From assembly GCA_934169775.1 (NCBI GenBank), contig CAKPOI010000001.1:16558-80557 (forward strand): a stretch of 64,000 bases of DNA, written 5' to 3'. Shown in pieces: positions 57,048-58,361 of the stretch (position 1 is its first letter; each line of letters opens with the position of its first letter). Source of the stretch: an uncultured Clostridia bacterium. Lineage in GTDB: Bacteria; Bacillota; Clostridia; TANB77; CAG-508. The position numbers were made by a program, and so were the translations under genes. The notes beneath the pieces were generated by a model. The model had not been told where the DNA came from. It saw only the letters and a program-made list of their open reading frames with translations, and searched no databases.

Positions 57048-58361
57048 TCAGTTTACATAAAGTGCTGGACGGAAACTAATATTGTAGATGCTGTAAGTCG
57101 TGCTATCGTCATTACGGCCAGAGGCTGGATAACTAGAGCCTGTATCGCTGTAACGGCCTCCCCTGTAGGCACAAGGAAGGCTACTGTTGGAAGTCTTTTC
57201 CAAGGTCCATTCCCATTCATTTCCTGCAAAATCATATATGTTCATTTTATTTGTTTCTTCTGATGCTCCTGTTGTTAATAAAACACTACTTGCTGGCTTT
57301 TCTCCTGTTATTGCTGTCCATGTACTTCCACTATTTGTTGTTTGTTTTGCTTTGTCACTGCTTATTGTTCTTTTTGCATTGCTATAATTTCCCCATGTAC
57401 TGCTATCTGCATTGATGTTGGCTGTTGTTAATGTTGATTTTACTTCTAAATATTTACATACTAAATCCCATTGGATTCCAAACATTAAACTACTTGTATA
57501 ATTACTATCTGGTGTCATTTCATTTGCTAAAGCTTGTGCTTCGCTACAATACACGTAGTTATATGGTATTGCATCCTTTTGGCTTATGGCTTTTGGTGAT
57601 GTTCCTATTGTTATTCTTGCTGATGAACTTGTTCTTGCATTTGTTGTTTCTGTTGTAGTTCCTTCTATTCCTGCTTCATATCTTCCTATCCAGAATCCTC
57701 CATAATTATATATACTTTTTAACATTTTTTGATATGCTGCTTTATATTCATCTGATGTCATTCCACAACCATTATACCATTCATCTGTCCAATTATAACC
57801 TTCTCCTGCTTTTCCTTTTCTATATACTCCTGCATATGCTATTAATTTATTTTTTATATCCGTATAATTTTGATCTGTTAATGTTCCAGTTGTATCTATT
57901 GTTAAATCTGAAAATACTGTTGTTTTTGGTACTTCTATCCATACCCATTCATTATTATTTTTATCTTTTATTACTATTCCTTTATTTGCATCTGCTTCTA
58001 TTACTGTTGAATTTGCAGGTACTGCTCCTGCTGGATTTGTATCTGATTTATTTATATTAGTAAAGTTTGAACTTGTTCCTCCTCCAGAGCCACCATTTCC
58101 TGAACCTCCACCTGTTGTTCCATCTGCATATTGGTCTATTGTACTTTCATATCCTGCTAATTTCTCTGTTTCTTCATCATTTTTTTGATTTGTTTGTTCT
58201 TTTGCTTCTGCTGCTCTTTTTAATATTCCATTATCTCCACTTAATGCTGCAATTGTTACTCCAGCAAGTATTAGAAGTACAATGATTGTGATGACAAGTG
58301 CAATTAGAGTTATACCTTTATTGCTTTTTGTTTTCATTTTTATTCTGTCTTTTATCTTCAT
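57048..58361 (-). CDS. DGR variable (target) protein: pilin-like N-terminal anchor, Gly/Ser-rich linker, FGE-sulfatase/C-type-lectin-fold domain, VR at the C-terminus.
   Basis: N-terminus KGITLIALVITIIVLLILAGVTIAALSG. FGE-type motifs (GFWIGRYEAG, AGNEWEWT, RGGRYSD). The 3' 134 bp match the TR. Confidence 0.85.
   Translation of the reverse strand: MKIKDRIKMKTKSNKGITLIALVITIIVLLILAGVTIAALSGDNGILKRAAEAKEQTNQKNDEETEKLAGYESTIDQYADGTTGGGSGNGGSGGGTSSNFTNINKSDTNPAGAVPANSTVIEADANKGIVIKDKNNNEWVWIEVPKTTVFSDLTIDTTGTLTDQNYTDIKNKLIAYAGVYRKGKAGEGYNWTDEWYNGCGMTSDEYKAAYQKMLKSIYNYGGFWIGRYEAGIEGTTTETTNARTSSSARITIGTSPKAISQKDAIPYNYVYCSEAQALANEMTPDSNYTSSLMFGIQWDLVCKYLEVKSTLTTANINADSSTWGNYSNAKRTISSDKAKQTTNSGSTWTAITGEKPASSVLLTTGASEETNKMNIYDFAGNEWEWTLEKTSNSSLPCAYRGGRYSDTGSSYPASGRNDDSTTYSIYNISFRPALYVN
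57061..57194 (-). other. DGR variable repeat (VR) within the 3' end of the target gene.
   Basis: See TR. Encodes ...SNSSLPCAYRGGRYSDTGSSYPASGRNDDSTTYSIYNISFRPAL. Confidence 0.85.

What the first reader, a model, noticed from the sequence alone, without database searches (positions are those of the whole stretch)
57048..58361. DGR target is a pilin-like-anchored FGE/C-type-lectin-fold protein
The variable protein combines an N-terminal class-III-signal-like hydrophobic segment (KGITLIALV..ILAGVTIAALSG, with Ala at the usual Glu+5 position), a G/S-rich linker, and an FGE-sulfatase (SUMF1)/CLec fold whose C-terminal strand carries the VR. A CLec-fold VR is typical for DGR targets. A pilin-like anchor suggests the diversified ligand-binding domain is displayed on a pilus-like fibre or at the cell surface via a type IV pilin/pseudopilin pathway. 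That architecture is unusual.
Basis: partly seen in the sequence, partly recalled or inferred. Interest (0 to 1): 0.7.

Follow-up and report, generated by a model that had tools for sequence, protein, structure and literature searches.

The report
Pilin-like-anchored DGR lectin-fold surface protein
This gene encodes a cell-surface binding protein of an uncultured gut Clostridia bacterium whose tip was rewritten by a diversity-generating retroelement and whose membrane anchor looks like the start of a type IV pilin; the protein is real but belongs to a very common, unstudied family, and display on a pilus is unproven.

Summary
ORF 57048-58361(-) encodes 437 aa: a K-rich leader ending in Gly16, a 24-residue hydrophobic helix with Ala at +5, a second helix, a G/S linker and a globular domain. 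The C-terminal 140 nt are a DGR variable region: 18 mismatches to the template repeat, 17 at template adenines.

The N-terminus is pilin-like by sequence. The best natural PDB matches are type IV pilins, and 29 of 84 relatives give weak N_methyl hits. Residues 16-40 are nearly invariant, even in relatives about 30% identical elsewhere. A stand-alone A24 prepilin peptidase is conserved in the clade.

It still fails membership. There is no Glu5, the Pfam score is below threshold, and the model shows no pilin head domain. No assembly genes were found, and the peptidase was not shown in this genome.

The architecture is not rare. It occurs in thousands of gut metagenome proteins, with at least 9 paralogues in one closed genome, and was counted in a 2021 census of modular pilins.

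The local DGR is crippled: the RT has a 76-aa in-frame deletion and the VR looks frozen.

Verdict: a new variant of a known kind, of moderate interest.

The parts
57048..58361 (-). Target (variable protein) gene, 437 aa
   Evidence: ORF list. The identical protein is on record in ENA and NCBI assemblies.
58314..58361 (-). Leader, residues 1-16: K/R-rich and ending in Gly16, the putative prepilin-peptidase site G|ITLIAL
   Evidence: Sequence. In relatives the leader is 3-48 aa and varies in sequence, always ending just before the conserved hydrophobic helix.
58242..58313 (-). Residues 17-40: 24-residue hydrophobic helix resembling pilin alpha1N, with Ala at +5
   Evidence: Mean entropy 0.06 bits in 44 homologues. 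Conserved at 90% or more in relatives about 30% identical elsewhere. Best PDB matches are type IV pilins. Pfam N_methyl scores 14.7 bits, below the 21.2 cut-off.
58125..58226 (-). Residues 46-79: second, charged helix (stalk) after the SGDNG break
   Evidence: AF2 secondary structure H46-79, pLDDT 63-76.
58068..58124 (-). Residues 80-98: G/S-rich flexible linker
   Evidence: Sequence. Length varies between homologues. pLDDT below 50 for residues 76-96.
57051..58067 (-). Residues 99-437: globular FGE-type C-type-lectin-fold domain
57058..57197 (-). Variable region (VR), codons 389-435
   Evidence: 140-nt repeat of the TR with 17 A-specific mismatches. The hypervariable positions in the population match the TR Asn codons.
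56951..56978 (-). 9-bp GC-rich hairpin about 70 nt downstream of the stop codon. It may be the DGR target-recognition hairpin or a transcript end; there is no U-run after it.
   Evidence: MFE -14.5 kcal/mol. Conserved at the same place in L068, L074 and L075. Its function was not tested.
56531..56779 (-). MutS-domain-I-like accessory gene (MSL), 82 aa, shortened
   Evidence: Pfam MutS_I E 2.9e-7. Orthologues are 141-151 aa. The MSL accessory class is described in PMC5758913.
56141..56530 (-). Avd accessory gene, 129 aa
   Evidence: Pfam bAvd E 2.9e-19, above the cut-off. NCBIfam DivGenRetAVD scores 74.3 bits, just below its cut-off of 80.
55384..56169 (-). DGR reverse transcriptase, 261 aa, with an in-frame 76-aa deletion after YLDD
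   Evidence: RVT_1 E 1.6e-13. It aligns to residues 1-238 and 305-336 of the 337-aa orthologues in L052 and L060.
55179..55318 (-). Template repeat (TR)
54728..54976 (-). Small OB-fold/SSB-like gene (82 aa) conserved just downstream of the TR; a possible additional DGR accessory gene
   Evidence: Sub-threshold SSB and OB-fold hits here and in the syntenic genes of L052 (3349-3594) and L060 (16373-16618).
5586..6815 (-). Paralogue (409 aa, 64% identical) with the same N-terminus, lying in the dcw cluster with no DGR beside it
   Evidence: Its C-terminus is only 68% identical to the TR.
38577..39107 (-). Third gene with a pilin-like N-terminus (176 aa, Ser at +5)
   Evidence: Motif scan. N_methyl E 0.017. 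Its best PDB matches are type IV pilins, at E 0.07-0.6.

Best explanation
The gene encodes a surface-exposed ligand-binding protein of an uncultured, low-GC gut Clostridia lineage. One member of that lineage has a closed genome of about 1.5 Mb.

Shown: the binding domain is an FGE-type C-type-lectin fold, and its C-terminal 47 codons were rewritten by a DGR.

Shown as a resemblance, function inferred: the protein has no lipobox and no C-terminal sorting signal, so it must be held by its N-terminus. That N-terminus is a class-III-signal-like module: a positively charged leader ending in Gly, then an alpha1N-like 24-residue helix that lacks Glu5.

Most likely route:
1. The protein inserts N-in/C-out into the membrane.
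2. The clade's stand-alone A24 prepilin peptidase, which has no methyltransferase domain, removes the leader at Gly16|Ile17.
3. The mature protein stays anchored by the alpha1N-like helix. The second helix and the G/S linker act as a stalk that presents the variable lectin face.

Whether it is also loaded onto a type IV filament is open. Loading as a terminal subunit would fit the absence of Glu5.

The same anchor module serves dozens of scattered paralogues with the same or other ectodomains, so it works as a lineage-wide display signal.

In this strain the DGR is no longer autonomous. The RT lacks 76 aa after motif 5, the MSL gene is shortened, and the VR has stayed fixed while the rest of the gene diverged.
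For: DGR: TR/VR with 17 of 18 mismatches at TR adenines. Avd, MSL and RT are adjacent. The RT carries the motif LEIGNYTSQ (read from the sequence). Population hypervariability sits exactly at the TR Asn codons.

Anchor: the only natural PDB matches of the N-terminus at E below 0.5 are type IV pilins. N_methyl hits 29 of 84 relatives. Entropy is 0.06 bits over residues 16-40 against 0.42-0.47 for the domain. That segment is conserved at 90% or more across relatives about 30% identical elsewhere. Leaders vary from 3 to 48 aa before the conserved helix. There is no Cys for a lipobox and no LPXTG (sequence).

Peptidase: Peptidase_A24 E 2.4e-20 in L033, without DiS_P_DiS. There are more than 491 homologous loci in gut metagenomes. 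About 1 Mb around those genes contains no canonical Glu5 pilin but 23 family-type N-termini.

Degenerate DGR. Strain polymorphism of the island.
Against: - Glu5, the most conserved pilin residue after Gly-1, is never present.
- Pfam N_methyl and NCBIfam pilin models are below their cut-offs, and a FliL model scores as well as GspG does.
- The model shows no pilin head domain.
- Family genes are scattered singly among housekeeping genes, not in pilus operons.
- The A24 gene lies in a housekeeping operon. Its proximity to family members (17 of 80 loci) is about what the family's genomic density predicts.
- A24 was not demonstrated in the window's own genome, and cleavage was not tested.
- The window has ComEC and DprA. 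The peptidase could therefore serve a competence pseudopilus instead.
Confidence: 0.55

Rival explanations
1. Plain uncleaved signal-anchor. The N-terminus is only a type II membrane anchor inserted by SRP/Sec. Its resemblance to pilins reflects composition, and its conservation reflects homogenisation among paralogues or a lineage-specific interaction unrelated to type IV filament machinery.
For: All pilin HMM scores are sub-threshold, and a FliL (single-pass anchor) model scores similarly. There is no Glu5 and no head domain. No pilus genes were found nearby. Most cellular DGR targets are reported to carry an N-terminal TM segment or signal peptide (PMC8144416).
Against: A plain anchor does not need an invariant T+2, L+3 and a nearly invariant 24-residue sequence across genera that share only about 30% identity elsewhere. 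Among 177,635 PDB sequences, which include thousands of TM proteins, the best natural matches are type IV pilins. A conserved A24 peptidase has no other visible substrate in the sampled loci.
Confidence: 0.28
2. Bona fide modular minor pilin. After cleavage the protein is polymerised into a type IV or competence pilus and displayed at its tip. This would give a DGR-diversified pilus-tip adhesin in a monoderm bacterium.
For: Modular pilins, with a pilin module joined by a linker to an adhesive module, are documented, and the IPR012902-IPR005532 combination is listed 8 times (PMC8179133). From my own knowledge, Glu5-less pilins such as GspK sit at filament tips. Some family members carry a different N-terminus (ERGAITAMVLASLL, KGSITLFVLIAMLFF) that recalls PilX/ComGG-type minor pilins. 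The window encodes ComEC and DprA. DGR-diversified tips of type V pili are known in Bacteroides (bioRxiv 10.1101/2024.11.15.621889).
Against: No assembly ATPase, platform protein or Glu5 major pilin was seen in any sampled sequence, though sampling is partial. No pilin head domain is present to dock into a filament. There are 9 or more paralogues per genome, each expressed from its own scattered locus. Pfam does not recognise the PilX-like variants.
Confidence: 0.15
3. Cleavable Sec signal peptide. Signal peptidase I cuts after Ala39-Leu40-Ser41 and the protein is released or wall-associated.
For: An A-x-S motif ends the hydrophobic stretch, and Gram-positive signal peptides can be long (reading of the sequence plus my own knowledge).
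Against: The hydrophobic core is 24 residues, which is TM length. The -3/-1 pattern is not conserved in relatives (…SIASLTGSG…, …INLVLGNNG…). No signal-peptide predictor was available.
Confidence: 0.05

Closest known systems
DGR variable proteins of the FGE-type CLec fold: TvpA (Treponema denticola, 2y3c) and TaqVP (Thermus aquaticus, 5vf4)
   Different: From my own knowledge TvpA is a lipoprotein. Here the anchor is an N-terminal pilin-like helix followed by a helical stalk and a G/S linker. The cassette is of the MSL-containing architecture, and in this strain it is degenerate.
Modular type IV pilins (Streptococcus sanguinis PilB and PilC; census in PMC8179133)
   Same: An N-terminal class-III-type module is joined by a short linker to a ligand-binding module. 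The census lists pilin + FGE-sulfatase 8 times.
   Different: PilB has a canonical class III signal peptide and a complete small pilin fold (PMC8179133), and I take this to include Glu5 (my own knowledge). Here Glu5 is absent, HMM thresholds are not reached, and only the helix is present. A DGR link does not appear in the passages of that paper that I read.
Geobacter PilA-N (truncated, helix-only pilin)
   Same: It is the best PDB sequence match of the N-terminus (E 0.0017 with the family profile). Both consist of the alpha1 helix without a globular head.
   Different: PilA-N has Glu5 and, from my own knowledge, pairs with PilA-C in a pseudopilus. No partner was identified here.
Sulfolobus sugar-binding proteins with class III signal peptides (bindosome; PMC3047682)
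   Same: These ligand-binding ectodomains use a pilin-type signal, cleaved by a peptidase that I recall as non-methylating, and stay at the cell surface rather than forming long pili.
   Different: They are archaeal, depend on a dedicated Bas assembly system and are not hypervariable. The analogy is functional only.
DGR-diversified type V pilus tip adhesins of Bacteroides (bioRxiv 10.1101/2024.11.15.621889)
   Same: A gut bacterium uses a DGR to vary an adhesive component associated with a pilus.
   Different: The pilus system there is type V (lipoprotein-type pilins in a diderm). Here the resemblance is to type IV pilins in a monoderm, and pilus assembly is not shown.

Membership tests
DGR target (variable protein) | VR/TR repeat pair whose mismatches fall at TR adenines | tested here: met
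   140 nt with 18 mismatches, 17 at TR adenines.
DGR target (variable protein) | Linked DGR-type RT and accessory gene(s) | tested here: met
   RT (RVT_1 E 1.6e-13, with the IGxxxSQ-type motif), Avd (PF22296 E 2.9e-19) and MSL (MutS_I E 2.9e-7) are adjacent. However, the RT has a 76-aa in-frame deletion relative to 337-aa orthologues.
DGR target (variable protein) | Evidence of actual diversification | tested here: met
   Among 44 homologues, entropy is 2.3-3.2 bits at positions encoded by TR Asn or AGC codons and about 0 at flanking positions. In the window's own sublineage the VR is nearly frozen: 2 VR differences against 17-19 non-VR differences.
FGE-sulfatase / CLec fold (PF03781) | Pfam score above the gathering threshold | tested here: not met
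   The target scores 12.8 bits against 23.3. Relatives L010, L066 and P0342 pass, and 61 of 84 relatives score E<=0.01.
FGE-sulfatase / CLec fold (PF03781) | Three-dimensional fold | tested here: met
Type IV pilin (class III signal peptide; PF07963, TIGR02532, IPR012902) | Short charged leader ending in Gly(-1), followed by about 20 hydrophobic residues | tested here: met
   Leader …KSNKG|ITLIALVITIIVLLILAGVTIAAL. In 204 N-termini, K or R is at -2 in 153, and I, T and L are at +1, +2 and +3 in at least 199 (the motif used to collect them constrains positions 0 to +8 in part).
Type IV pilin (class III signal peptide; PF07963, TIGR02532, IPR012902) | Glu at +5 | tested here: not met
   Ala21 here. 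The family has Ala 187, Ser 6, Thr 5, Val 4 and no Glu.
Type IV pilin (class III signal peptide; PF07963, TIGR02532, IPR012902) | HMM score above the curated cut-off | tested here: not met
   N_methyl scores 14.7 bits against 21.2. No prepilin-motif model such as TIGR02532 appeared at E<=0.1. GspG and PilA models give only E of 0.004 or weaker in a few relatives.
Type IV pilin (class III signal peptide; PF07963, TIGR02532, IPR012902) | Pilin fold: alpha1C packed on a beta-sheet head | tested here: not met
   The model shows helix 3-41, a break, helix 46-79, then a disordered G/S linker. Confidence in this region is moderate.
Type IV pilin (class III signal peptide; PF07963, TIGR02532, IPR012902) | Prepilin peptidase encoded in the same genome | tested here: inconclusive
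   A24 is present in related MAGs (L033, L035) and in more than 491 metagenome loci of the clade. It is absent from the 64-kb window and from about 20 kb of flanks in other strains. The whole genome could not be searched.
Type IV pilin (class III signal peptide; PF07963, TIGR02532, IPR012902) | Assembly ATPase and platform protein (PilB/PilC or ComGA/ComGB) in the genome | tested here: inconclusive
   No GspE-type Walker A or B motif was found in the window or in about 2 Mb of related loci. Those loci are redundant and cover only parts of genomes.
Type IV pilin (class III signal peptide; PF07963, TIGR02532, IPR012902) | Leader cleavage and incorporation into a filament | not testable with these tools
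   This needs biochemistry or imaging.

The most novel reading that the evidence does not exclude
An uncultured, reduced-genome gut Clostridia clade may use a Glu5-less, helix-only pilin module as a universal display signal. Dozens of paralogous lectin-fold adhesins per genome would be processed by a stand-alone, non-methylating A24 peptidase. They would then be presented one at a time as terminal subunits of a type IV-like filament, and a DGR would rewrite the binding face of some of them. This would be a monoderm, type IV counterpart of the DGR-diversified type V pilus tips of Bacteroides. The same genes also travel as prophage morons.
Probability: 0.15. Interest if true: 0.75.

Novelty: new variant of a known kind. 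Interest (0 to 1): 0.45.

Why it matters
How cellular DGR targets are displayed is known for only a few cases, such as lipoproteins and type V pilus tips. This family is very abundant in human and animal gut metagenomes, carries no database name, and joins a hypervariable lectin fold to a pilin-like anchor that standard pilin detectors miss because Glu5 is absent.

If the anchor is processed by the clade's A24 peptidase, the substrate range of prepilin peptidases in monoderm bacteria would be wider than assumed. It would also identify a large adhesin repertoire in an uncultured gut lineage.

The locus also shows DGR decay in progress. Strains exist with the whole island, with the target only, and with neither, and the VR here has been fixed since the RT was damaged.

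Tried and rejected
- First AF2 run on 44 close homologues failed (pLDDT 36). A second run with 63 distant homologues added succeeded.
- A profile search meant to reach distant homologues returned only the abundant close clade again.
- Motif scans for a GspE-type ATPase and for Glu5 pilins were negative but uninformative, because coverage of the genomes is partial.
- I tried to show the A24 peptidase in the same genome. I looked up paralogues on the 1.47-Mb closed contig (P0012, P0286, P0303) and a paralogue, P0293, that one search listed on a 109,138-bp contig also listed for the target. I also looked up the window's end genes. None of these flanks held A24.
- I considered whether the nearness of family genes to A24 shows functional linkage and rejected it. 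The density near A24 (23 in 0.96 Mb) is no higher than in the window (3 in 64 kb).
- I checked whether the paralogue at 5586-6815 is a second target of this TR and rejected it. It is only 68% identical over 93 nt.
- Lipoprotein anchoring and sortase anchoring were rejected from the sequence: there is no Cys after the helix and no LPXTG.
- The weak NCBIfam FliL hits were judged to reflect composition only (a single-pass anchor followed by a charged helix).

Full report
**What is there.** The window is a 27% GC bacterial chromosome segment. It carries the dcw cluster, gatCAB, rpsT, ComEC and DprA.

On the same strand, in order, lie:
- a MutS-domain-I-like gene (56531-56779);
- an Avd gene (56141-56530);
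- a reverse transcriptase (55384-56169);
- a 140-nt template repeat (55179-55318);
- a small OB-fold gene (54728-54976).

The TR matches the last 140 nt of the ORF (57058-57197). There are 18 mismatches, 17 of them at TR adenines. In the target's frame the TR encodes 16 Asn codons. Among 44 close homologues exactly those positions are hypervariable, with entropy of 2.3-3.2 bits, while the flanking Cys, Arg, Gly-Gly, Pro and Phe-Arg positions are fixed. This is a genuine DGR target.

**Fold.** On the target alone Pfam gives only sub-threshold hits: FGE-sulfatase E 0.095 and N_methyl E 0.023. At family level the evidence is clear:
- Relatives pass the PF03781 threshold (L010, L066, P0342).
- 61 of 84 diverse relatives hit PF03781 at E<=0.01.
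- Most distant homologues carry a precomputed PF03781 hit.
- A family profile hits human SUMF2 at E 4.4e-5.

**The N-terminus: evidence for a pilin-like module.** The model shows a helix at 3-41, a break at SGDNG, a second helix at 46-79, and then the disordered G/S linker.
- The hydrophobic segment is extraordinarily conserved. Entropy is 0.06 bits over residues 16-40, against 0.42-0.47 for the globular domain. The segment remains 90% or more conserved in relatives only about 30% identical elsewhere.
- In 204 distinct N-termini the leader varies from 3 to 48 aa. Position +5 is Ala, Ser, Thr or Val, and never Glu.
- The best natural PDB matches of the N-terminus are type IV pilins. Geobacter PilA-N scores E 0.0017 with the family profile and about 0.04 with the single sequence. 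PilE1, MshA and PilA score more weakly.
- N_methyl is the only recurrent N-terminal Pfam family (29 of 84 relatives).
- JGI named one relative 'pseudopilin PulG'.

**The N-terminus: evidence against membership.**
- Every pilin HMM is below its cut-off, and a FliL model scores as well as GspG does.
- Glu5 is missing.
- There is no pilin head domain.

I therefore describe the module as pilin-like, not as a pilin.

**Machinery.** Neither the window nor about 20 kb of flanks recovered from other strains encodes a prepilin peptidase or pilus assembly genes. Related MAGs do encode an A24 peptidase. In L033 it is intact (Peptidase_A24 E 2.4e-20, no methyltransferase domain), and in L035 it is frameshifted. 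A metagenome scan found more than 491 homologous loci.

In the loci I inspected the gene sits in a yqeG(HAD)-A24-pepP-efp operon, so it is not part of a pilus cluster. The 0.96 Mb around these genes holds no canonical Glu5 pilin and no GspE-type ATPase, but it does hold 23 family-type N-termini. That density is no higher than the family's density in the window itself, so the proximity is not evidence of linkage.

The family could be the peptidase's substrate. A competence pseudopilus is an alternative client, since ComEC and DprA are present.

**How common it is.**
- The target has at least 8000 close hits (73-100% identical in the 120 listed) and 22,319 50%-identity clusters at E<=1e-3. These include giant proteins with 10-15 copies of the domain.
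- All 66 loci from species-representative genomes are uncultured gut Clostridia MAGs from human, rabbit, mouse and roe deer, often with 10 or more copies per genome.
- One closed 1.47-Mb contig carries at least 9 paralogues.
- The copies are scattered singly among housekeeping genes, and several have a divergent XRE-type regulator upstream.
- The same anchor is attached to other ectodomains such as Big_2 and Laminin_G_3.
- Some family members carry a different N-terminus (ERGAITAMVLASLL, KGSITLFVLIAMLFF) that I could not assign.
- Copies with the pilin-like anchor also sit as morons next to prophage integrases, and a phage tail-fibre-like protein carries the domain without the anchor.

In the literature, modular pilins are an established concept, and the prepilin + FGE-sulfatase architecture is listed 8 times in the census of PMC8179133. 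A 2024 DGR survey mentions a GspG-type pilin domain among rare target domains (PMC11661182). I found no paper that analyses this family.

**State of the DGR.**
- The window's RT (261 aa) aligns to residues 1-238 and 305-336 of the 337-aa orthologues in L052 and L060. It has therefore lost 76 aa in frame, between two EAKK(A/Y)L repeats. By my reading of the orthologue sequence the lost part holds RT motifs 6 and 7 and the start of the thumb.
- MSL is 82 aa here, against 141-151 aa elsewhere.
- In the sister species' closed genome the match to the RT ends at residue 172.
- Homologues 95-96% identical to the target differ at 17-19 non-VR positions but at only 2 VR positions. Homologues about 92% identical differ at 15-18 VR positions. 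The VR therefore appears frozen in this sublineage.
- At the same gatCAB-rpsT site, one strain lacks the whole island and another keeps the target but has lost the cassette.

**Verdict.** It is a new variant of known kinds, namely DGR CLec targets and modular pilin-like proteins, and is of moderate interest.

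Noticed in passing
window 55384-56169 (-): The DGR reverse transcriptase has an in-frame 76-aa deletion between two EAKK(A/Y)L repeats, compared with the 337-aa orthologues in L052 and L060. By my reading the lost part holds motifs 6 and 7 and the start of the thumb. The VR of this sublineage looks frozen.
   Followed up: yes
window 54728-54976 (-); L052 3349-3594; L060 16373-16618: A small (81-82 aa) OB-fold/SSB-like gene is conserved directly downstream of the TR in three DGR cassettes. 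It could be an undescribed accessory gene. All Pfam hits are sub-threshold.
   Followed up: partly
window 52951-59363 compared with L073, L074, L075: The stretch between gatB and rpsT is a polymorphic island. One strain (L073) has none of it. Another (L075) keeps the target but lacks MSL, Avd, RT and TR. L074 and L075 have an extra DUF3990 gene that is missing from the window.
   Followed up: partly
window 56951-56978 (-): A 9-bp GC-rich hairpin without a U-run lies about 70 nt downstream of the target stop codon. It is conserved in L068, L074 and L075, including the strain that lost the DGR cassette.
   Followed up: partly
window 5586-6815 (-) and 7174-7521 (+): A 64%-identical paralogue is inserted in the dcw cluster, between the PBP/ftsI-type gene and a Mur ligase gene, with a divergent XRE-family HTH gene upstream. 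Similar HTH genes precede paralogues in L069, L070 and L076.
   Followed up: partly
window 38577-39107 (-): A pilin-sized (176 aa) protein has a related N-terminus (SGITLISLAVVIAVLIILAG, Ser at +5). Its stop codon overlaps the start of the next ORF (38023-38577), and ruvA lies further downstream. It could be a candidate filament subunit.
   Followed up: partly
target residues 163-219 (window about 57705-57875): Among 92-96% identical strains the non-VR substitutions cluster in residues 163-219 (for example D163E, G178T, K182E, Y189C, K207T). This suggests a second variable patch, or recombination between paralogues.
   Followed up: no
L007, L010, L030, L044, P0342: Some family members replace the GITLIALV anchor with ERGAITAMVLASLL or KGSITLFVLIAMLFF. 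These recall PilX/ComGG-type minor pilins, but Pfam does not recognise them.
   Followed up: partly
L079 6076-7194, L083 27-1184, L081 5398-6792: In IMG/VR contigs, family members sit next to prophage integrases in the moron position. In L083 the pilin-like anchor is seen in the ORF itself; in L079 the tblastn match begins at query residue 16. A phage tail-fibre-like protein (L081) carries the same lectin-fold domain without the anchor.
   Followed up: partly
P0125-P0129: Giant proteins of 1626-6477 aa contain 4-15 tandem copies of this domain.
   Followed up: no
window 52951-54627 (-) and 15179-15577 (-): A predicted AAA-ATPase_like/PDDEXK_9 gene flanks the DGR island. A 132-aa fragment of a similar gene lies at 15179-15577.
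   Followed up: no
window 18044-19563 (-) and 35992-37282 (-): Two stretches each look like one gene split into two ORFs. My reading of the N-terminal sequences, with no domain search, is that they are ComM-like (Mg-chelatase type) and RarA/MgsA-like. The splits may be frameshifts or assembly errors.
   Followed up: no
window 24706-32028 (-): A 2440-aa ORF, the largest in the window, was not examined.
   Followed up: no
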